A stretch of DNA of 64,000 nt, taken from the IMG/VR virus record IMGVR_UViG_3300029305_003710, positions 20,153 through 84,152 of that record, one strand, 5' to 3'. This document shows positions 53,389-63,810 of this stretch, one piece after another (position 1 is the stretch's first letter; the number at the start of each line of letters is the position of its first letter). The notes below the pieces were generated by a model. It was not told where the DNA came from. It searched no databases and worked only from the letters and a program-made list of their open reading frames with translations. The position numbers and the translations under genes were made by a program. The DNA is from a virus (lineage: Duplodnaviria; Caudoviricetes).

Positions 53389-54078
53389 ATGACGATGCGC
53401 AAAAAATACCCTCACGAATATCATGCTTGGGTGGGGATGCGGAATAGGTGCAAGAACTCAAAAAAGATTAAGGATGAAGGGATTGTTTGTTGCGACAGGT
53501 GGGCAACATTCAAAAACTTTTTGGAAGACATGGGGCCCCGTCCTGAGGGGACATATCTCACAAGGCACAATTTAGATGGGAATTTTAACAAAGAGAATTG
53601 CTATTGGGGGCACCCCAAAGGTATTTACGTCGATAAAAAGCTAAGAGAAGAAAATTGGATAGAGTTTTCGGCATGGGCAGATACGAGACGACGATGCTAC
53701 AACCCAAATTATAGATATTTTTGGCGGTATGGAGGACGAGGTATTAAGGTTTGTGACAGATGGTTGGGAACAAATGGATTCAAACACTTCTTAGACGACA
53801 TGGGGAAGCGTCCGCCAGACAAGACTTCGCTCGACCGTATTGACGTGGACGGAGATTATTGCCCAGAAAATTGCCGATGGGCAAATTGGCATGAGCAGGC
53901 CAGAAACAAGGGCAACAATCGTAAGGTAATCGGAGTGTCTCCATGCCGCGCAAAAGGGACTTGGCAAGCAGATTTAGTCGTAAAAGGATGTCGTGTCCTG
54001 CACCATGAGTTTCAGGACTATAAGAATGCAGTTGTATCGCGGCGATTAGCTGCTAAATTATACGGTTTAGAGTTCTAA
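53389..54078 (+). CDS. HNH endonuclease with duplicated domain and AP2-like C-terminus
   Basis: Two W..MR.RC...CDRW..F..FL.DMG.RP units; second has SLDRIDVDGDYCPENCRW; GVS....TWQA; leaderless promoter TTGCTA-17-TATAAT. Confidence 0.8.
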   Translation: MTMRKKYPHEYHAWVGMRNRCKNSKKIKDEGIVCCDRWATFKNFLEDMGPRPEGTYLTRHNLDGNFNKENCYWGHPKGIYVDKKLREENWIEFSAWADTRRRCYNPNYRYFWRYGGRGIKVCDRWLGTNGFKHFLDDMGKRPPDKTSLDRIDVDGDYCPENCRWANWHEQARNKGNNRKVIGVSPCRAKGTWQADLVVKGCRVLHHEFQDYKNAVVSRRLAAKLYGLEF

Positions 54079-54612
54079 CTCTACTGGTGAGAAATTTGTT
54101 ACCTCGACGCAGAGATTGACATACGAACTTGGGTGGAGAAGAGAATCTCCCGCCAGCTGAGGGTCATTCGAGCGGTGCCGGTGTCCATGCAGGTTTATCG
54201 CTTTATGCCCATACATACCTTCCAATGCTTGTATAGTGGTGTAGGGGACAGGGATGTGAGTAATGATATAAGTTAATCTACCTGGCATGGTGGGGGAAGG
54301 GAGAACCAGCATTCTGTGGATTTCCTCAAAGCCAGCGTCGTGATACCAGTGGTCGCTTTGGTTGTCATGATTCCCCTTAATAAGAAGTTTATGCCCATTC
54401 AAGGATTTTAGGAGTTGTTGAGATTCCGAGGCTTTGCCTAGGAAACAGTCCCCTAAGTTATAAACCGTGTCTTCTGGTTTGACGAGTTCGTTCCAGTTTT
54501 TGATAATAGTTTGGTTCATCTCCTCGACTGACGAGAAGTGTTCTCTGCCCTCGAATTTAAGAGAAGCCTGATGGTTTATGTGAAGGTCTGACACGAAGTA
54601 AATTTTGCTCAT
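54067..54612 (-). CDS. Calcineurin-like metallophosphoesterase
   Basis: SDLH, LGD, GNHD, TH.P and HGH.H motifs. Confidence 0.88.
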   Translation of the reverse strand: MSKIYFVSDLHINHQASLKFEGREHFSSVEEMNQTIIKNWNELVKPEDTVYNLGDCFLGKASESQQLLKSLNGHKLLIKGNHDNQSDHWYHDAGFEEIHRMLVLPSPTMPGRLTYIITHIPVPYTTIQALEGMYGHKAINLHGHRHRSNDPQLAGDSLLHPSSYVNLCVEVTNFSPVELEL

Positions 54613-55140: not shown

Positions 55141-56556
55141 CTATGCCACGATTTGGCGATAACGTTCGCTATTAACGACCTCATTCATCAAGTCTTCAGG
55201 GGTTTTGCCTTCCATAGCAAACCTAAAAGCATTCTGGTTTGAACCACTGATAAGCGTCACATTGCGGTCAAATTTAGTCGCAGGGACATTATCGGAACGA
55301 GCGTCCACGTTCCAGAACACCACTGTTGGCAATTTAAGTCCAGCTTCATTCCATTTGCGACGAGCATTTTCAAAAGCAGTTTCGTCTGCTCCAGTTATAC
55401 AGTAATCAAACTCCATATCGGAAATGATGTAAATCACTTTCGGCATATTTTCAAAGTCGTTAGAAGCCTTGGCCGCAGTAAGAAGAGCATCAAAAGCAGC
55501 TTCGATATTAGTATTCGCACCCCAATCGGCAGTTTCAATGTTATGGAGCTTTTGCGTGAGGGTATCCCCTGCTATTTCAACGAGCCGTGGTTGTTCGGAA
55601 AATGTCATAAACTTATTAGCGAACACCCCCTTGTTCCTCTCGGCGAAGTAAAGTGCAAGAGACGTGGAGATGTCCATTGGGCGTCCATACATTGAACCAG
55701 AGACATCTGCTATAACGATAGCGTTTAAGTCTTCTGGGACAAAATTATCAAGCGATTTCCAAATCGCATTAGAAGTATCGTTGTCGCCTTTGCGAACATT
55801 TTGCAGAACCTCCGCAGTAGTCACAGTTGAGGTGTTAATTTTGGCTTTGCCCTCGTTTACTTTAGTAACAAAAGCAGAGAAACGTTCCTCGTCATGTTTT
55901 TTGAAAGCAGTTGTGTGTTTACGGAAGGCTTGGGAAGGAAGCTTATCGTATTGGATTTCTCCCCATCTATTCGCTGACATATCCTGTTCGAGCAGTCGGA
56001 TTTTCTTTCTGAGTTTAGATAGCAGTTTACGATATTCACTCGCTTTGAGTCCTAAAGCTTTAGCCCAGTTCCTCGCTGCCTTACGGGTGCTTATAGAAGA
56101 AGTATTTTCTGAATCCATCCACTTTGCAAGGAGCGAAGGTTGCTCGGATTTCTCGTCCTCGGCGAGTTGTTTTTTAACAATCTCGACCGCCACAGGGTTG
56201 CTTGCTCGGTTATAGAGAAGGTCGTCCCACCGTCCGTATTCGGGAATAAATTTGAGCATTTTATTGGCAGTATCAAAATCAAGGGCAGCAAGTTCTTCCA
56301 TACACTTCCGGAAAATATCTCTCTCGCCCTGCCCCCCTCGAATATCTCGAATATAAAACAGAGTTCGTAGAGCTGTGGTCTTGTTTTTCGCATAAGCCTT
56401 TCTAAACAGGCCAACTGCTTCTTCGGGTCTAGCACGCTTGCTTGCTCCAAGAGCAAAAAAATCAAGGCATGGATTGAGGCTACTTGCGTTAGTTACACCA
56501 CCGTTTTCGGTGGTAGCCTTATTCGTTGCCTTTTGTAGTTCTTCTAAGTACCCCAT
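55141..56556 (-). CDS. DUF2828 family TROVE/Ro60-like protein with C-terminal vWA domain
   Basis: TENG, LDFF, RDIRGG.GER, YGRWDDL, LLAKW, DVSGSM (MIDAS), TFS, T.....FD.LL, ISDMEFD, VVFWNV. Confidence 0.88.
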   Translation of the reverse strand: MGYLEELQKATNKATTENGGVTNASSLNPCLDFFALGASKRARPEEAVGLFRKAYAKNKTTALRTLFYIRDIRGGQGERDIFRKCMEELAALDFDTANKMLKFIPEYGRWDDLLYNRASNPVAVEIVKKQLAEDEKSEQPSLLAKWMDSENTSSISTRKAARNWAKALGLKASEYRKLLSKLRKKIRLLEQDMSANRWGEIQYDKLPSQAFRKHTTAFKKHDEERFSAFVTKVNEGKAKINTSTVTTAEVLQNVRKGDNDTSNAIWKSLDNFVPEDLNAIVIADVSGSMYGRPMDISTSLALYFAERNKGVFANKFMTFSEQPRLVEIAGDTLTQKLHNIETADWGANTNIEAAFDALLTAAKASNDFENMPKVIYIISDMEFDYCITGADETAFENARRKWNEAGLKLPTVVFWNVDARSDNVPATKFDRNVTLISGSNQNAFRFAMEGKTPEDLMNEVVNSERYRQIVA

Positions 56557-56590: not shown

Positions 56591-56686
56591 CAAGACACAA
56601 ATTTTGTACTGGAATTGAACCAGCGAAAGTTTCTGTTAAGGAAACGTTCCAACCATTGGGCTAAGGTGAGTTGCTGTATGTGTCTT
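56591..56686 (-). ncRNA. Stem-ACAGCAA scaffold RNA 2 with tRNA-like D, anticodon and T arms but no acceptor stem
   Basis: AAGACACA-t-ACAGCAA...TGTGTCTTG; TAGCCCAATGG (D-like), GTTTC-cttaaca-GAAAC, GCTGG-ttcaatt-CCAGT. Confidence 0.65.
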
Positions 56687-56696
56687 TAATGTTCGC

Positions 56697-56810
56697 TAGA
56701 CATTATATTAAGTGCTCTACCATTGAGCTATATGAGCCATGCTCATAATCGGATTCGAACCGACAACATCTCCATTATCAGTGGAATATGTTATTTGCTG
56801 TTAATGTCTA
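56697..56810 (-). ncRNA. Stem-ACAGCAA scaffold RNA 1 carrying a circularly permuted tRNA-Ile(GAU)
   Basis: TAGACATTA-ACAGCAA...TAATGTCTA encloses, in order, anticodon arm (loop CTGATAA), T arm (TTCGAAT), acceptor 3' strand TATGAGC-A, TG linker, acceptor 5' strand GCTCATA and D arm (GCTC-AATGGTA-GAGC). Confidence 0.8.
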
Positions 56811-56858
56811 CAATTCAAGTATATAGCATGAGGCTGATTTTTACAAGTATGATATCCA

Positions 56859-57060: not shown

Positions 57061-58614
57061 TTATACCACACCATACTTAGGTTTGATTGCTTCCCAAATC
57101 TTCGAGATGCACTCTTGCTCCTTGTCTTTGCGGAGCATGAACAGATAGGGTTTCAAGTTTTGATAATTATCGAGAAGCCCAAGTTCCTTGTCTGTCAGGT
57201 GAGAAGTTTCGCTATCGGCGTCTTGGACGGCTCGCCAAATCTCGTTAAACTCCTTCGTGAATTCTCGTTGCCAAGTAATCGCTTGGGGCAGAAGTTCGTC
57301 AACCTCTACTTCTTCGGCGACTAGCTTGCCGTCTCGCATAATTTCCCAGATTCTTCGCTTATTAAAGCCCGAGATTAAGCGGTGTCGTTCAAGCCACCAG
57401 GAGCCTTTTATCTTGACACGCTCGCCAGTCTGGGGGTTCAGTGCAACTACGCCTTCTACCTCACCCTTGATATATTTTTTGTAGTCAGTAATCTGCTCTG
57501 CATAAGGAAAGGGTGATAGTTCTTGAGGGTTTAGTTCTTCCCCCTCGAGGGTTCTAATGCCCCAGCAAATTAGCATTGGCTCGTAATGTTTCGTGACGAT
57601 AATGGCTTCGTCGCCTTCAAAGTTTTGGCAAAGTTCGCAAAAGTAAGATAACCCCTCGATAAGGTTTTCTTGTATCGCCGGGGTGATGAACTTCTTGGCA
57701 GCGTCCACATACTTATTATCAAAACTCCCTCGTGAAGCGACGATAAGCCCGAAAATGGGGTCTTTTTTCACGATAATCATATAGCCGTCGCTTTTGGAGG
57801 TGATGACGGATTTGTTGAGATTAACCTTTGCAGCAAACGGCTCGCCAAGATTGAAAAACTTTTCTGGCGGGTTGACGACAATGTTTCTACCATTGAGGAT
57901 TAGCCCTCGGCATTTCCGCGTGACATCAGTCCAATAACCTTCGTAGTCGCACTGTTTTGTATAGTTATAGATTTTCAAGGGCAAAGTGGGGTGTGTTGCG
58001 ACGCGGATGTTCCCTGCCTCGACTTCTTTTTGCAGTCGCTCGAACCAACTCTCACTTACACAAGTATAAGTTCTCTTGAAATGAAAGCCCTTACACTTCC
58101 ACCCGTATTCGAGGGAAGCCCATATCCTGTTGGGTTTTGCCCCTACATCTCGAGCGGCTTCTGAAATACTCCGATAGCGTTTAAGGGTTTCGACACAATA
58201 GACGGGGACGAGTTCCATCTTATTGCTAGTGCTTTGGTTAAGAGTATAGATTCTATGCTTCATATTTTCCGACGAAGATACCCACTCAAGATTTTCAACT
58301 CGATTGTCTCGACGGTCGCCGTTTTTGTGGTTGACTTCTTTTCCCCCGTCTGGGTTAGGGATAAATACTTCTGCCACAAGGCGATGGACATATTTTCCTT
58401 GCCAGCCCGCAGTGTTATAAAGCCTAGCCTTAATATAGGCAGTTTTATCTTTTTTCGTCGGCTGGGGGTTGAGCACTTTCCCCTTATATCGCCATTCTCC
58501 AAGTTTGTGTTGGACAACACGAGGCACACTCCTTACTCTGCCGAGTGAACTTACCTCATATAACCCTTCATACCCCTTAACGGGCAACCATTTTTCTTGT
58601 AGTATTTCCTCCAT
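57061..58614 (-). CDS. NUMOD4-HNH endonuclease fused in frame to a T4 Rnl1-like RNA ligase
   Basis: N-term W.PV.GYEG.YEVS..GRVRS, VHRLVA, VNHKNG...DNR..NLEW; C-term IYNY, CRGLI, KFFN.GE, KSDG (motif I), ASRGSF, EGVV, RVKIK. Confidence 0.85.
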   Translation of the reverse strand: MEEILQEKWLPVKGYEGLYEVSSLGRVRSVPRVVQHKLGEWRYKGKVLNPQPTKKDKTAYIKARLYNTAGWQGKYVHRLVAEVFIPNPDGGKEVNHKNGDRRDNRVENLEWVSSSENMKHRIYTLNQSTSNKMELVPVYCVETLKRYRSISEAARDVGAKPNRIWASLEYGWKCKGFHFKRTYTCVSESWFERLQKEVEAGNIRVATHPTLPLKIYNYTKQCDYEGYWTDVTRKCRGLILNGRNIVVNPPEKFFNLGEPFAAKVNLNKSVITSKSDGYMIIVKKDPIFGLIVASRGSFDNKYVDAAKKFITPAIQENLIEGLSYFCELCQNFEGDEAIIVTKHYEPMLICWGIRTLEGEELNPQELSPFPYAEQITDYKKYIKGEVEGVVALNPQTGERVKIKGSWWLERHRLISGFNKRRIWEIMRDGKLVAEEVEVDELLPQAITWQREFTKEFNEIWRAVQDADSETSHLTDKELGLLDNYQNLKPYLFMLRKDKEQECISKIWEAIKPKYGVV

Positions 58615-58642: not shown

Positions 58643-59530
58643 TTACCGCAAATCTAGTCTGGCGGCGTCGAAGGTTGCATTTCCCTTTTTATCAAAAGTA
58701 ACTTCGAGAAAACTATTGTCGCCGATTGGCACAGAAAACCCTGCATACCAAACCCACGCTTCGGAGTGGGTGTCGCAGAACACTAATTGTTTAGAGCCTT
58801 TGTCTGCATCAGAAATCTGGTAGGTCTCGATAGTCTTCACGGGCGTATGCCCAACAATCTGATTGAGTCCCCACGGAGCGTGTCCTTCGTTGTTTTCATC
58901 GCCTAAGAGGTCAGACTTATCTGCCCAAAGCGGTGAGGGATTGCCTAGCCCGCCACGGCTCGACCCTGCTTGCCCAAAAGCCCTAAAGAGTTTGTCGTCG
59001 GGGTTTGATAATCCTTCTAAAAAACCATAGCCTAAAATGTTCGCAACCTTACAGGCTAAAGTCCCCTCTTTCCCGTTTAGGAGTTCAAGCAAGCTCGGAT
59101 AGTGGTTTTTAAGGAGAAGTTTGAGGTCTTCAAACCACCTTTCATCTAGCCCACCGTGAGTAAATAAATAATTTCCTTTGGAGTAAGCCATATCAAAGAC
59201 AGGCACATTTCCGTCAAGCCTTGTCTTGTAGAGGTCTTTGACAAGCGAGTGCGTTTCTTCCTTATAGCCTGAACAAGCAAAATCTCCTCCCCAACCTTCT
59301 GATAAATCGTGATTGCCGAGTAAAAGAGTAATCTTTTGAGGATTATCAAGTTTCAAATCAACTAGTTCTTTTAAGGTGTTGTAGGATTGTTCTGGAGTAG
59401 CCAGCCAATCATCAACATAGTCCCCCAAAAAGATTATTCGGTCGTATTTAGGCAAAAGCTCTTTAGCTTTTTTGATAATCCTAGGCTTACAATGTATGTC
59501 ACCAAAAACAGCCACCTTCAGTATCTTCAT
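58643..59530 (-). CDS. Calcineurin-like metallophosphoesterase
   Basis: GDIH, LGDYVD, GNHD, THGG and VGHT motifs. Confidence 0.88.
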   Translation of the reverse strand: MKILKVAVFGDIHCKPRIIKKAKELLPKYDRIIFLGDYVDDWLATPEQSYNTLKELVDLKLDNPQKITLLLGNHDLSEGWGGDFACSGYKEETHSLVKDLYKTRLDGNVPVFDMAYSKGNYLFTHGGLDERWFEDLKLLLKNHYPSLLELLNGKEGTLACKVANILGYGFLEGLSNPDDKLFRAFGQAGSSRGGLGNPSPLWADKSDLLGDENNEGHAPWGLNQIVGHTPVKTIETYQISDADKGSKQLVFCDTHSEAWVWYAGFSVPIGDNSFLEVTFDKKGNATFDAARLDLR

Positions 59531-62579: not shown

Positions 62580-63810
62580 GTCAACTACCCCTAGCTAAAG
62601 CAAGGGGCTTGGTACGAACACCCGACTAGTGCCAGATTTTTTAGAACCCTATCCCCGTAGTTGCTACGGTTAAGTCCTTCTCGAAGAATGTTTATTGCCG
62701 CATTTTGGTCACGGTCTATTTCTAGCCCACAATACTCGCAATGATAACTTCTTTCCGATAAAGACAAATTATCTTTTATTTTTCCACAGTGGGAACAGGT
62801 CTTAGAGCTGGGGAACCATTTGTCAATCTTCACTAGGTATTTACCTCTATCGGCGAGTTTATAGGCGAGAAAAGAAATAAACATCCCCCACCCATTATCG
62901 TTAGTGGACTTGCCTAATTTCAATGACTGACTCATAGCTTGCATATTCAAATCCTCGATGCACACAATATCATACTGTTTGGCTATCGCAGTGCTGAGAT
63001 TATGTAGAAAGTTTTTGCGTTGGTTTGCAATCTTTCTATGCAATCGAGCGACGACTATGCGTTGCCTGTTTCTATTTCGACCTCCCTTCGTTCTCTTTGA
63101 GAGAATTCGTTGGGCTTTTGCTAATTTAGCTTCGGATTCTCGGAAATATCTTGGATAATTAGCAGAAAAACCAAGATTATCAACGAATAGGGATTTACTA
63201 GAATAATCCAAGCCAATAGCCGATTGAGGTTTAGCTGGAGTCGGATTATGCTCATATTCAACTAAAATGCTTACAAAATACTTTCCATCGAGGTCTTGGG
63301 AGATAGTGGCAGATTTTATCTTCCCGACCACCTCTCGATGTTTTATCATTTTGACTAGACCAATTTTCGGAAGTTTTATGTAATTATCTATTATAGCTAG
63401 ATAATTGGTAGTATAGCTTTTTCTAGATTTATGTTTTGATTTATATTTTGGAAACCCAACCTTTTTCTGAGTGAAAAAATTACGGAAAGCTTGTCCAAGA
63501 TTCATTTGCACATTACATAAAGCCCAACTATCCACTTCTCGTAGCCAAGGAAACTCTGTTTTGTATTGAGCCGGGGTATTTTTTAGAGTTGTTTTGGTTT
63601 TTTCATAATAAGCGATTTTGTCACTGAGCATTTTATTCCAGATGAATCTAGAACAGCCAAAGTTTTGCTGGAAAAAGCTCTCTTGTGCAGAGGTAGGGAG
63701 TAGTCTAAACTTATATGCTCGATTAGCCATATCTATATTATAATATATTTCTAACAAAAATACAAGCGCAATTCCTCCCCCACTTGAAAGTAGGGGATTC
63801 CTTGCTCAAC
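62580..63810 (-). mobile_element. TnpB-only IS200/IS605 (IS1341-like) element; left boundary approximate
   Basis: Subterminal hairpins at 62586-62608 and ~63776-63800; right end ...GGGGTAGTTGAC at 62580; no tnpA. Confidence 0.75.
62591..63730 (-). CDS. tnpB: RNA-guided endonuclease TnpB
   Basis: RAYKFRL.PT, GLD (RuvC-I), IEDLN (RuvC-II), SSKTCSHCG zinc finger, DRDQNAAINI (RuvC-III); leaderless promoter TTGTAT-17-TATAAT puts the start at 63730. Confidence 0.93.
   Translation of the reverse strand: MANRAYKFRLLPTSAQESFFQQNFGCSRFIWNKMLSDKIAYYEKTKTTLKNTPAQYKTEFPWLREVDSWALCNVQMNLGQAFRNFFTQKKVGFPKYKSKHKSRKSYTTNYLAIIDNYIKLPKIGLVKMIKHREVVGKIKSATISQDLDGKYFVSILVEYEHNPTPAKPQSAIGLDYSSKSLFVDNLGFSANYPRYFRESEAKLAKAQRILSKRTKGGRNRNRQRIVVARLHRKIANQRKNFLHNLSTAIAKQYDIVCIEDLNMQAMSQSLKLGKSTNDNGWGMFISFLAYKLADRGKYLVKIDKWFPSSKTCSHCGKIKDNLSLSERSYHCEYCGLEIDRDQNAAINILREGLNRSNYGDRVLKNLALVGCSYQAPCFS

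What the first reader, a model, noticed from the sequence alone, without database searches (positions are those of the whole stretch)
56697..56810. Complete tRNA-Ile(GAU) encoded in circularly permuted order inside a stem-ACAGCAA scaffold
Seen in the sequence (minus strand): anticodon arm TTCCA-CTGATAA-TGGAG (56786-56770), variable ATGTT, T arm GTCGG-TTCGAAT-CCGAT, acceptor 3' strand TATGAGC plus discriminator A, a 2-nt TG linker, acceptor 5' strand GCTCATA, TA, D arm GCTC-AATGGTA-GAGC and A26. Re-ordering at the 26/27 junction gives a canonical cloverleaf with U8, G18G19, an A15-U48 pair, a UUCGAAU T-loop, A73 and a perfect 7-bp acceptor. The acceptor is closed by a 3-nt loop and the free ends are held in a 9-bp outer stem. 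Established knowledge: permuted tRNA genes are known from some algae and an archaeon, and YrlA-type Y RNAs have a closed acceptor stem but lose the anticodon arm. I do not know of this anticodon-retaining permuted form in phages. Inference: it is either a precursor that is circularised (an RNA ligase is two genes away) and reopened at the acceptor loop, or a non-aminoacylatable tRNA decoy presented by the neighbouring Ro-like protein.
Basis: partly seen in the sequence, partly recalled or inferred. Interest (0 to 1): 0.92.

Follow-up and report, generated by a model that had tools for sequence, protein, structure and literature searches.

The report
Phage Y-like RNA: inside-out tRNA-Ile
Next to its gene for a Ro60-shaped RNA-binding protein, this phage encodes a small RNA that is a complete isoleucine tRNA written in rotated order with its amino-acid end sealed, and related phages show that the retained anticodon hairpin is a conserved, selected part of a widespread RNA family that the YrlA literature describes as lacking one.

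Summary
On the minus strand, 56810-56697 reads: 9-bp closing stem, ACAGCAA, anticodon arm (CUGAUAA), variable loop, T arm, sealed 7-bp acceptor, D arm, A26. ARAGORN finds nothing in the native order. After rotation at 26/27 it calls tRNA-Ile(GAU).

It is not a tRNA gene. It belongs to a large phage family of "stem + ACAGCAA" RNAs that lie beside DUF2828 genes. The window's DUF2828 protein models as Ro60. The closest known kind is YrlA (Rfam 39.6 bits, below the cut-off of 69; the Ro-binding GNCGAA motif is absent).

New here:
- About half to two thirds of family members keep a full anticodon stem-loop: U33 39/41, A37 37/41, A38 39/41, with a variable triplet.
- The break point moves between members (26/27, 28/29, 29/30, or open at the loop).
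- Many short members carry only an anticodon hairpin.
- The discriminator does not track the anticodon (5/14), and Ser/Leu loops lack long variable arms. The family mimics tRNAs rather than supplying them.

Most likely function (inferred): a Ro-like particle that displays a tRNA/anticodon-loop mimic as bait or platform in tRNA-damage conflicts.

This scan has already found the handle family in at least 26 other genomes. I rate it a new variant of a known kind.

The parts
56818..56846 (-). Promoter-like site TTGTAA-17-TATACT; its -10 hexamer ends 7 nt before the first base of RNA1
   Evidence: consensus scan only; 9 of 12 matches
56697..56810 (-). RNA1: the whole 114-nt handle RNA carrying the circularly permuted tRNA-Ile(GAU)
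56802..56810 (-). 5' strand of the 9-bp closing (outer) stem, TAGACATTA
   Evidence: stem covaries in 63 relatives (helix 1: all 7 pairs show changes on both sides)
56795..56801 (-). ACAGCAA box, invariant in the family; presumed binding site for the Ro-like protein
   Evidence: invariant in all aligned members; binding is inferred, not shown
56770..56786 (-). Anticodon arm: stem 27-31/39-43 (UUCCA/UGGAG, with U27-G43) and 7-nt loop CUGAUAA (anticodon GAU)
   Evidence: predicted independently by RNAalifold with compensatory changes; helix 3; loop statistics
56765..56769 (-). Variable loop AUGUU; U48 pairs with A15 (Levitt pair)
   Evidence: 15:48 covaries across 39 relatives: A:U 18, G:C 17, U:A 3, one mismatch
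56748..56764 (-). T arm GUCGG-UUCGAAU-CCGAU
   Evidence: helix 4, 100% of cells paired
56731..56747 (-). Sealed acceptor: 3' strand UAUGAGC, A73, UG, 5' strand GCUCAUA (7 bp, 3-nt loop, no encoded CCA)
   Evidence: helix 5
56713..56730 (-). U8 A9, D arm GCUC-AAUGGUA-GAGC, A26
   Evidence: A14 in 39/39, GG in 39/39; helix 6
56697..56712 (-). 3' linker CUUAAUA and 3' strand of the closing stem, UAAUGUCUA
56592..56686 (-). RNA2: second handle RNA (AAGACACA/UGUGUCUU + ACAGCAA). Its cargo is in normal tRNA order: D-like element, hairpin GUUUC-CUUAACA-GAAAC, 4-5 nt variable region, T arm. It has no acceptor stem.
55141..56556 (-). DUF2828 + DUF7788/vWA protein (471 aa), Ro60-shaped; the presumed protein partner of both RNAs
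   Evidence: Pfam; PHROG 850 'RNA-binding protein'; AlphaFold2 pLDDT 89.3; the top 13 PDB matches are all Ro60, including 1yvr, 9kop (Thermus phage phiLo) and 2nvo
57061..58614 (-). NUMOD4/HNH domain fused to a T4 Rnl1-type RNA ligase; the next ORF upstream of RNA1
   Evidence: PF09511; phrog_562
54067..54612 (-). Metallophosphoesterase, in the same leftward gene block
58643..59530 (-). Second metallophosphoesterase, in the same leftward gene block

Best explanation
RNA1 is a Y-RNA-like partner RNA of the phage's Ro60-shaped DUF2828 protein. Its closing stem plus ACAGCAA box is the family 'handle', presumed to be the protein-binding module. Its cargo is a full tRNA body in rotated order: the chain enters at position 27 and leaves at position 26, and the acceptor end is sealed by a 3-nt loop. 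It can therefore fold into the tRNA L-shape with an intact anticodon stem-loop, while it cannot act as an ordinary tRNA as transcribed. Shown here: the anatomy, family membership, covariation of all helices and of the 15:48 tertiary pair, conservation of the anticodon-loop frame (U33, A37, A38) with a free triplet, and the Ro60-like fold of the neighbouring protein. Inferred: the particle displays a tRNA/anticodon-loop mimic. This mimic would serve as bait or competitive substrate for host enzymes that attack anticodon loops, and/or as a platform that brings the adjacent Rnl1-type ligase and phosphoesterases to damaged tRNA. In either case it would be an anti-defence or RNA-repair device. In origin it looks like the 3' part of one tRNA-Ile copy joined to the 5' part of the next. 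That is the intermediate predicted by the 'dimeric tRNA' model for how YrlA arose.
For: Anatomy and tRNA call. YrlA is the best Rfam match over the full length of the model (E = 3e-7). Family: an anticodon-blind pattern scan of IMG/VR gave 39 distinct permuted tRNA-like handle RNAs. A DUF2828 homologue lies within the fetched locus for 13 of the 33 IMG/VR RNAs, often less than 1 kb away, although the scan used RNA features only. Handle RNAs also flank DUF2828 genes in Felixounavirus, Listeria A511, Bacillus, Staphylococcus, Campylobacter, Aeromonas, Enterococcus, Klebsiella and cluster L mycobacteriophages. Covariation. Anticodon arm as a selected part: 25 of 39 members have a complete 5-bp stem closing a 7-nt loop, against a mean of 4.1 and a maximum of 12 in shuffles. 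41 of 63 model hits have such a loop, with U33 39/41, A37 37/41, A38 39/41 and 19 different triplets. 49 canonical anticodon-type hairpins occur among 236 handle RNAs against 6.8 in shuffles, and 22 of them are the sole cargo. In near-identical mycobacteriophages the triplet changes (GUU, GGU, GAU) while the frame is kept and the stem covaries. Mimic rather than tRNA. Protein. Context: the Rnl1-type ligase is the next gene and two phosphoesterases lie in the block. Experimental precedent: deleting the Ro60-like gp130 of phage Bas63, which lies directly upstream of its tRNA genes as the Felixounavirus DUF2828 gene does, sensitises the phage to the Ppl defence system (PMC11482910). Natural tRNA-Ile-cleaving toxins exist (PMC9424206).
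Against: There is no expression, binding or cleavage data for this RNA or this protein. Binding of ACAGCAA by the DUF2828 protein rests on co-occurrence only. Thermodynamic folding alone prefers a longer hairpin that pairs AUAACAU with AUGUUGU and breaks the T stem (-32.4 against -28.0 kcal/mol for the tRNA-like fold). That extension is not conserved in relatives. Ppl, the one defence known to be countered by a homologue, is described as a DNA-directed PHP/ATPase system, which does not obviously call for an anticodon-loop decoy. RNA1 itself, unlike most relatives, carries 10 of the 12 bacterial isoleucine identity elements listed in PMC9976931 Table 1 (A73, C4-G69, U12-A23, U20, C29-G41, G34 A35 U36 A37 A38 against the sequence). 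This keeps a charging role open.
Confidence: 0.6

Rival explanations
1. Opened and chargeable mimic. RNase P cuts the sealed acceptor before G1, the UG tail is trimmed, CCA is added to A73, and IleRS charges the resulting two-piece, handle-clamped tRNA-Ile. The RNA may then act as a charged tRNA look-alike on or off the ribosome.
For: The acceptor is 7 bp with G1-C72 and A73. M. smegmatis YrlA, which also has a 7-bp stem, is cut by RNase P and receives CCA in vivo (PMC4201824). 9 of 39 relatives encode N73-CCA exactly at positions 73-76 inside the loop, against 0.6 expected. RNA1 has A73, C4-G69, U12-A23, U20, C29-G41 and G34 A35 U36 A37 A38, which is 10 of the 12 bacterial Ile determinants in PMC9976931 Table 1 (against the sequence). 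The phage's 8 ordinary tRNAs include no tRNA-Ile.
Against: RNA1 encodes no CCA. Across the family the discriminator fits the anticodon in only 5 of 14 cases, and the other three Ile-type members lack both A73 and C4-G69. Ser/Leu-type loops sit beside 2-5 nt variable regions. G16 and U21 are not met. A 9-bp helix, 22 nt of linker and a 53-kDa protein attached at position 26/27 have no precedent in a decoding tRNA.
Confidence: 0.12
2. Permuted pre-tRNA. The handle is excised, positions 26 and 27 are ligated (by the neighbouring Rnl1-type ligase) into a circle, and the acceptor loop is then opened to give an ordinary tRNA-Ile, as with the permuted tRNA genes of Cyanidioschyzon.
For: The re-joined sequence is a textbook tRNA-Ile. 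An RNA ligase gene is adjacent. The phage has no other tRNA-Ile. Wang et al. raised this possibility for YrlA (bioRxiv 10.1101/312249).
Against: There is no bulge-helix-bulge motif at the junction: the linkers are 15 and 7 nt on a 9-bp stem. No bacterial or phage splicing endonuclease of that kind is reported. The handle is invariant and also occurs on cargoes that can never become tRNAs. The break point varies between relatives. About 20 of 44 handle anticodons duplicate an ARAGORN-called tRNA in the same locus, so they do not fill gaps; some of those calls overlap the handle RNA itself.
Confidence: 0.04
3. Structural relic. The tRNA-like body only stabilises the Y-like RNA or tethers a generic tRNA-elbow-binding effector such as PNPase, as proposed for YrlA. 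The anticodon arm is a leftover of a tandem-tRNA origin with no function of its own.
For: This is the published view of the YrlA tRNA domain: nuclease protection, or effector binding at the T/D elbow. About a third of family members lack the hairpin and are open at the loop like classical YrlA. The T and D arms are far more conserved than the anticodon stem.
Against: A relic would decay. Instead U33, A37 and A38 are kept in 37-39 of 41 loops, the stem covaries, and the loop stays at exactly 7 nt in 44 of 63. Anticodon hairpins are the only cargo of 22 short handle RNAs and are 7-fold enriched over shuffles.
Confidence: 0.2
4. Chance resemblance or mis-assembly: not a real gene.
For: ARAGORN and Rfam gathering thresholds report nothing in the native sequence.
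Against: 63 covarying full-length homologues, a conserved genomic partner, and a promoter-like site placed exactly at the 5' end.
Confidence: 0.01

Closest known systems
YrlA-type bacterial and mycobacteriophage Y RNAs bound by Ro60/Rsr (Rfam RF02553; Chen et al. 2014, PMC4201824; Wang et al. 2018, bioRxiv 10.1101/312249)
   Same: The order is T arm, sealed acceptor, D arm, with the 5' and 3' ends paired in a protein-binding stem. U8, A14, G18G19, the T-loop and a covarying 15:48 pair are conserved. The RNA is encoded beside, and probably co-transcribed with, a Ro60-shaped protein gene, often in pairs (A and B forms) and near RNA ligases. Many YrlAs have a 'V' hairpin 5' of the T arm.
   Different: The score is below the Rfam cut-off (39.6 against 69 bits). 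The Rsr-binding GNCGAA(N)G motif is replaced by ACAGCAA. The protein is DUF2828, not a Pfam TROVE match. The stem in the anticodon position is closed locally by a canonical 7-nt anticodon loop, whereas YrlA is stated to lack an anticodon loop. The chain breaks at 26/27 rather than at the loop.
Circularly permuted tRNA genes of Cyanidioschyzon merolae, other algae and one archaeon (as summarised in bioRxiv 10.1101/312249)
   Same: The 3' half is encoded before the 5' half. The acceptor is initially a closed loop. Rotation restores a canonical cloverleaf.
   Different: Those are true pre-tRNAs, processed at a bulge-helix-bulge junction by the splicing endonuclease and a ligase. Here there is no such motif, the junction carries a conserved protein-binding handle, and the family's identity elements are incoherent.
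Thermus phage phiLo phiRo60 with Yrl1/Yrl2 (PMC12135203) and Bas63 gp130 (PMC11482910)
   Same: These are phage-encoded Ro60-fold proteins with RNA genes encoded next to them. phiRo60 (9kop, 9l5y) is among the top structural matches of the window's protein. gp130 has an anti-defence phenotype.
   Different: The phiLo Yrls are stem-bulge-stem RNAs with a CGAA motif and no described tRNA body. For Bas63 the partner RNAs were only guessed at.
The 'stem + ACAGCAA handle' RNAs already flagged by this scan in at least 26 other genomes
   Same: Same handle, same DUF2828 neighbour, tRNA look-alike cargo.
   Different: This copy is the most complete tRNA among those I examined: perfect acceptor, break at 26/27, and most of the Ile identity set. 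This report adds the family-wide reading of the anticodon arm, the moving break point, and the hairpin-only cargoes.

Membership tests
YrlA (Rfam RF02553) | Score at or above the curated gathering threshold (69 bits) | tested here: not met
   39.6 bits, E = 3.1e-7, model positions 1-114 of 114; nothing at the gathering threshold
YrlA (Rfam RF02553) | tRNA-like module in the order T arm, closed acceptor-like stem, D arm, with conserved tertiary-pair nucleotides | tested here: met
YrlA (Rfam RF02553) | GNCGAA(N0-1)G Ro60/Rsr-binding motif near the 5' end (PMC4201824) | tested here: not met
   No such motif lies outside the T-loop in 56697-56810. An invariant ACAGCAA occupies the equivalent place.
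YrlA (Rfam RF02553) | No anticodon loop: the anticodon-position stem is formed by the distal 5' and 3' segments (bioRxiv 10.1101/312249) | tested here: not met
   A local 5-bp stem with the 7-nt loop CUGAUAA. The Rfam alignment marks the distal pairs as non-standard.
Ro60/Y RNA ribonucleoprotein | Encoded beside a Ro60 (HEAT-repeat ring + vWA/MIDAS) protein | tested here: met
   Met at the fold level: model pLDDT 89.3, the top 13 PDB hits are all Ro60, TM 0.5-0.62 at 11-16% identity; DxSGS MIDAS motif invariant. Pfam TROVE is not matched and the protein is DUF2828 + DUF7788/VWA_2, so orthology to Ro60 is not shown.
Ro60/Y RNA ribonucleoprotein | The RNA is physically bound by the protein | not testable with these tools
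   Only co-occurrence: a DUF2828 homologue lies in the locus of 13 of 33 IMG/VR RNAs found by an RNA-only scan, plus all phage groups inspected
Circularly permuted tRNA gene | Rotation yields a sequence recognised as a tRNA | tested here: met
   ARAGORN calls tRNA-Ile(gat). The cloverleaf is within 1.6 kcal/mol of the MFE. tRNAscan-SE and Infernal could not be run on the rotated sequence.
Circularly permuted tRNA gene | Bulge-helix-bulge processing motif at the junction, and maturation to a linear tRNA | tested here: not met
   The motif is absent by inspection: linkers of 15 and 7 nt flank a 9-bp stem. Maturation is not testable here.
Functional tRNA-Ile | Bacterial Ile identity set (A73, C4-G69, U12-A23, G16, U20, U21, C29-G41, G34 A35 U36 A37 A38; PMC9976931 Table 1) | tested here: inconclusive
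   10 of 12 are present in RNA1; G16 and U21 are not (sequence, table). There is no free or encoded CCA end. The family as a whole shows no coupling between anticodon and discriminator (5 of 14 fit).
Stem + ACAGCAA handle RNAs beside DUF2828 genes | A covarying closing stem of 7-9 bp, ACAGC(A/G)A directly 3' of its 5' strand, and a DUF2828 gene nearby | tested here: met

The most novel reading that the evidence does not exclude
Phage Ro60-like particles carry interchangeable anticodon stem-loops, alone or on a full inside-out tRNA body. Their 'anticodon' triplets turn over quickly between related phages because each one is a decoy or sensor matched to a host anticodon-loop nuclease. RNA1 would be the isoleucine version, possibly opened by RNase P and even charged. 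If so, this is a programmable RNA-based counter-defence, and it would give the tRNA-like domain of Y RNAs its first concrete function.
Probability: 0.25. Interest if true: 0.9.

Novelty: new variant of a known kind. Interest (0 to 1): 0.68.

Why it matters
What the tRNA-like domain of bacterial Y RNAs is for has been open since 2014, and the published description says the anticodon loop is gone. This phage RNA and its relatives show the opposite for a large, mostly unannotated family. The anticodon stem-loop is kept with its U-turn frame, its triplet varies even between near-identical phages, and in many members it is the only cargo. That points the search for the missing effector at enzymes that read or cut anticodon loops. 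It links the family to the neighbouring Rnl1-type tRNA-repair ligase, and to the one genetic phenotype known for a homologous protein (counter-defence in Bas63). It also turns the question into simple bench tests. In addition, RNA1 is the intermediate expected from the tandem-tRNA model of Y RNA origin. There is a practical point for annotators too: tRNA finders either miss these genes or, as in some mycobacteriophage records, call them tRNA-Asn or tRNA-Thr.

Tried and rejected
1. DNA similarity to deposited phages found nothing for the RNA region or for 16 kb of the window. Single-protein search for related loci in IMG/VR also found nothing. Relatives had to be reached by tblastn and by an RNA pattern scan.
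2. I tried to fetch the experimentally studied M. smegmatis YrlA, to test whether its 'V' hairpin is an anticodon arm. The primer CACTTCTAATGGAATGGTCGC from PMC4201824 gave no hit in genome contigs. What remains is a lead: the primer itself reads ..CA-CTTCTAA-TG.., which fits a CUUCUAA loop.
3. Burroughs & Aravind 2016 and the two Sim/Wolin reviews are not held. I could not check whether they mention the ACAGCAA RNAs or the anticodon hairpin.
4. MAFFT alignments of the family (A1, A2, A5) mis-register the acceptor and the 3' stem, so they were not used for a model. A model was built from the window sequence alone instead. This biases hits towards RNA1-like loops, so the count of seven GAU loops is probably inflated.
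5. RNAalifold proposed pairing ACAGCAA with the variable loop and T stem. I rejected this because ACAGCAA is invariant, the partners do not covary, and the pairing destroys the fully conserved T arm.
6. I rejected the extended hairpin of the MFE fold because it is not conserved in relatives.
7. Handle anticodon arms are not recent copies of neighbouring tRNA genes: they share only 5-13 of 17 identical positions (a script that stopped early). About 20 of 44 handle anticodons also occur in an ARAGORN-called tRNA of the same locus, but some of those calls overlap the handle RNA itself.
Full report
**1. The observation.** The order is:
- 9-bp closing stem (TAGACATTA ... TAATGTCTA) and ACAGCAA, followed by an 8-nt linker
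- anticodon arm TTCCA-CTGATAA-TGGAG and variable loop ATGTT
- T arm GTCGG-TTCGAAT-CCGAT
- acceptor 3' strand TATGAGC, A73, TG, acceptor 5' strand GCTCATA
- TA, D arm GCTC-AATGGTA-GAGC, A26, and a 7-nt linker

ARAGORN finds no tRNA anywhere in the window, and Rfam reports nothing at gathering thresholds. When the two halves are re-joined at 26/27, ARAGORN calls tRNA-Ile(gat). For that rotated sequence the cloverleaf lies 1.6 kcal/mol above the minimum-energy fold. The native RNA folds better than all 200 shuffles (z = -3.7). A promoter-like TTGTAA-17-TATACT ends 7 nt before the first base. A GC-rich hairpin followed by a short run of T (about 56882-56858) closes the upstream gene.

**2. What Rfam sees.** With relaxed thresholds the best match is YrlA (RF02553). 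It scores 39.6 bits with E = 3e-7 and covers model positions 1-114, but the curated cut-off is 69. The T arm, sealed acceptor and D arm align well. The two distal helices that form the YrlA 'anticodon-position' stem are marked as not pairing, because here that strand folds back on itself. The tRNA model scores 28.8 bits (cut-off 29) by skipping the D arm.

**3. Surroundings.**
- The window is a complete 84,152-bp virus record. It has 8 ordinary tRNA genes elsewhere (Trp, Tyr, Pro, Asn, Phe, Gln, Gly, Gln) and none for Ile or Leu.
- A second RNA with the same design of stem + ACAGCAA lies at 56686-56592, eleven bases downstream of RNA1. Its cargo is in normal tRNA order and lacks an acceptor.
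- Next comes a 471-aa gene (56556-55141) that matches DUF2828, DUF7788 and VWA_2 and PHROG 850 'RNA-binding protein'.
- I modelled this protein from an alignment of 18 homologues taken from the fetched loci. The model has pLDDT 89.3 and pTM 0.89. Its 13 best PDB matches are all Ro60: Xenopus 1yvr, human, Deinococcus 2nvo, and Thermus phage phiLo 9kop/9l5y.
- The ORF immediately upstream of RNA1 is a NUMOD4/HNH domain fused to a T4 Rnl1-type RNA ligase. Two metallophosphoesterases lie in the same block.

**4. Relatives.**
- The protein has homologues in 709 deposited phages of very different hosts. They are annotated as 'Ro-like RNA binding protein', 'DUF2828' or hypothetical.
- Inspecting 12 of these loci showed the same RNA topology in mycobacteriophage Wilder, Enterococcus phage EFDG1 (two copies) and Klebsiella phage FBKp34.
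- It also showed short stem + ACAGCAA RNAs beside the gene in Felixounavirus, Listeria A511, Bacillus, Staphylococcus, Campylobacter and Aeromonas phages and in a gut phage contig.
- I then scanned IMG/VR with a pattern that says nothing about the anticodon region (ACAGCRA ... T-loop ... TAGC). After structural filtering this returned 39 distinct permuted tRNA-like handle RNAs.
- For 13 of the 33 IMG/VR ones a DUF2828 homologue lies in the same fetched stretch, often within 1 kb.
- A covariance model built from RNA1 alone found 63 full-length matches in 0.92 Mb.
- On that alignment 92.8% of pair cells are paired, against 57.1% in shuffles and 37-47% with slid partners. The covariation score is 0.773 against 0.198 (0 of 500 shuffles reach it). 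Every helix has compensatory changes. The alignment was fitted to the model, so it leans towards the structure.
- The 15:48 tertiary pair covaries in the pattern-derived set: A:U 18, G:C 17, U:A 3, one mismatch. A14 and G18G19 are invariant.

**5. The anticodon arm across the family.** This is the point of the finding, so I tested it three ways.

(a) In the 39 anticodon-blind members, I asked whether positions 39-43 are fully paired either by a local strand closing a 7-nt loop, by the strand that follows A26, or by a mix of the two.
- 25 of 39 have a complete 5-bp stem closing a 7-nt loop. Shuffles give a mean of 4.1 and a maximum of 12.
- The break point differs between members. It is at 26/27 in 7 (window, L056, L041, L090, L092, EFDG1 copy 1, L130), at 28/29 in 6 (including Wilder), and at 29/30 in 7.
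- 5 further members have one local pair (break at 30/31); 4 of these can equally form the fully distal, classical YrlA stem.
- Another 5 are fully distal, which is the classical YrlA topology, open at the loop.

(b) RNAalifold on the six clear 26/27-type sequences predicts the hairpin on its own, with compensatory changes in 4 of its 5 pairs.

(c) In the 63 model hits, 41 have a 7-nt loop at that place. The loop frame is C32 28/41, U33 39/41, A37 37/41 and A38 39/41, and there are 19 different triplets at 34-36.

The frame of a real anticodon loop is therefore conserved while the 'anticodon' is free.

**6. The anticodon hairpin as a module.**
- Among 236 distinct handle RNAs in all fetched loci there are 49 hairpins with a 5-bp stem and a U33/R37/A38 7-nt loop. 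Shuffles give 6.8 (maximum 14).
- 22 of these hairpins are the only cargo of short RNAs, sitting mostly about 10-13 nt (range 1-21) after ACAGCAA. The stems covary, for example three different stems around CUUUUAA. Campylobacter phage F361 carries CATTA-CTGATAA-TGATG, the same loop as RNA1.
- Within cluster L mycobacteriophages, which share 73-100% identity over the RNA, the loop reads CUGUUAA (Wilder), CUGGUAA (Zakai, one of only two differences from Wilder), and AUGAUAA with a compensated stem (CELFI, Chaser).
- GenBank records annotate this RNA as tRNA-Asn or tRNA-Thr in a few of these phages and not at all in the rest.

**7. Is it a working tRNA?** For the family in general the answer looks like no.
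- The discriminator fits the anticodon's bacterial identity rule in 5 of 14 testable members (rules from PMC9976931).
- Ser- and Leu-type loops sit beside variable regions of 2-5 nt instead of a long arm. This includes RNA2 of this window.
- Many acceptor 5' strands do not begin with G.
- About 20 of 44 handle anticodons also occur in an ARAGORN-called tRNA of the same locus (some of those calls overlap the handle RNA itself), with unrelated stems where the two are separate.

RNA1 itself is the exception. It has G1-C72, A73, C4-G69, U12-A23, U20, C29-G41 and the full G34 A35 U36 A37 A38, which is 10 of the 12 listed bacterial Ile determinants. The other three Ile-type members have neither A73 nor C4-G69.

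The sealed acceptor may not stay sealed. M. smegmatis YrlA, which also has 7 bp, is cut by RNase P and gains CCA in vivo (PMC4201824). Also, 9 of 39 relatives encode N73-CCA at exactly the right place inside the loop, against 0.6 expected. RNA1 has A73-UG and no CCA. I therefore keep a charged or opened form as a minor rival (0.12).

I rate the circularise-and-reopen pathway as unlikely (0.04). There is no bulge-helix-bulge junction, the handle is invariant and is shared with cargoes that cannot become tRNAs, and the break point moves.

**8. What is known.**
- Chen et al. 2014 found YrlA RNAs next to Ro60 in more than 250 bacteria and phages. [quoted passage not shown]
- Wang et al. 2018 state that YrlA lacks the anticodon loop. 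They discuss the resemblance to permuted pre-tRNAs and the dimeric-tRNA origin model.
- RNA1 is the 3' part of a tRNA-Ile followed by the 5' part of the same tRNA. That is what a truncated tandem duplicate would give, and it fits that model closely.
- A primer printed in Chen et al. (..CA-CTTCTAA-TGGAATGGTCGC) suggests that the M. smegmatis 'V' loop is itself CUUCUAA. I could not retrieve the locus to confirm this.
- I found no paper that links DUF2828 to these RNAs, and none that describes permuted tRNAs in phages.
- A 2024 preprint reports that Bas63 gp130 is Ro60-like by structure and lies directly upstream of the tRNA genes, and that deleting it sensitises the phage to the Ppl defence. The authors guess that some 'tRNA genes' are Y RNAs (PMC11482910).
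- The Felixounavirus DUF2828 gene has just that position, and four handle RNAs lie among its tRNAs. That gp130 is this orthologue is my inference.
- This scan has flagged the handle family in at least 26 other genomes.

**9. Mechanism.**
- Shown: anatomy, family, covariation, tertiary-pair covariation, conserved loop frame with a free triplet, Ro60-like neighbour, ligase and phosphoesterase context.
- Inferred: the DUF2828 ring binds the stem/ACAGCAA handle and presents an L-shaped tRNA mimic whose anticodon loop is the business end.
- The most economical use is in the tRNA-damage arms race, either as bait or competitor for host nucleases aimed at anticodon loops, or as a platform for the Rnl1-type repair ligase next door. 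tRNA-Ile-specific toxins exist (PMC9424206).
- Weak points are the absence of any expression or binding data, an MFE fold that prefers a non-conserved extended hairpin, and the DNA-directed nature proposed for Ppl.

**10. Verdict.** The RNA is a new variant of a known kind (YrlA-type tRNA-mimic Y RNA), and it belongs to a handle family that this scan has met before. The added value is the demonstration that a genuine anticodon stem-loop is a conserved, modular cargo.

Noticed in passing
window 56592-56686 (-): RNA2 is a second handle RNA (AAGACACA/UGUGUCUU + ACAGCAA). Its cargo is a tRNA body in normal order without an acceptor stem. Its anticodon-position loop is CUUAACA (UAA, with an unusual C37), next to a 4-5 nt variable region, so it is not a real class II tRNA-Leu.
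   Followed up: partly
L001:3024-3145 (Wilder), L133 (Zakai), L134 (CELFI), L135 (Crossroads), L136 (Chaser): The cluster L mycobacteriophage homologue is annotated as tRNA-Asn or tRNA-Thr in a few GenBank records and left unannotated in most. The triplet differs between near-identical phages (GUU, GGU, GAU), and Crossroads has an 8-nt loop.
   Followed up: yes
L007:1008-1071, L107:6080-6142, L087, L034, L038, L051, L112, L128, L012:2706-2773, L061, L122: These short handle RNAs (cargo 33-57 nt) carry only a canonical anticodon-type hairpin (Ile, Asn, Lys, Ser, Thr, Cys, Glu types), placed mostly about 10-13 nt after ACAGCAA.
   Followed up: partly
L102, L107, L128, L129, L130, L046, L065, L074, L088 (acceptor loops): 9 of 39 permuted members encode N73-CCA exactly after a 7-nt acceptor 3' strand, inside the 'sealed' loop (0.6 expected by chance). 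This suggests that the loop is opened in vivo, or that these members derive recently from tandem tRNA genes.
   Followed up: partly
(family-wide): Displayed triplets are enriched for NNU with A37: 13 of 20 in the anticodon-blind set and 29 of 41 in the model set. This is the class of loops that carry t6A37 in real tRNAs. AT-rich composition and model bias may explain part of it.
   Followed up: no
L108:4723-4839, L128:7258-7371, L130:1609-1720: ARAGORN calls an ordinary-order tRNA (Asn, Gly, Lys) lying wholly inside a stem + ACAGCAA handle. This is a third way of mounting a tRNA body on the handle.
   Followed up: no
L027:3747-7542: The closest protein relative (51% identity) is surrounded by six handle RNAs of all types: short, classical permuted, permuted with an 8-nt loop AUUGAAAA, hairpin-only, and normal-order with a T arm.
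   Followed up: partly
window 57061-58614 (-): A single ORF joins a NUMOD4/HNH homing-endonuclease module to a T4 Rnl1-type RNA ligase.
   Followed up: no
window 62591-63757 (-): An IS605 OrfB/TnpB-type (Cas12f-like TNB domain) gene lies inside the phage genome.
   Followed up: no
closing stems of all family members: The closing stems covary, but most begin with (U/A)AG(A/G) and end with (C/U)CU followed by U or G. The first two or three pairs may therefore be read by the protein together with ACAGCAA.
   Followed up: no
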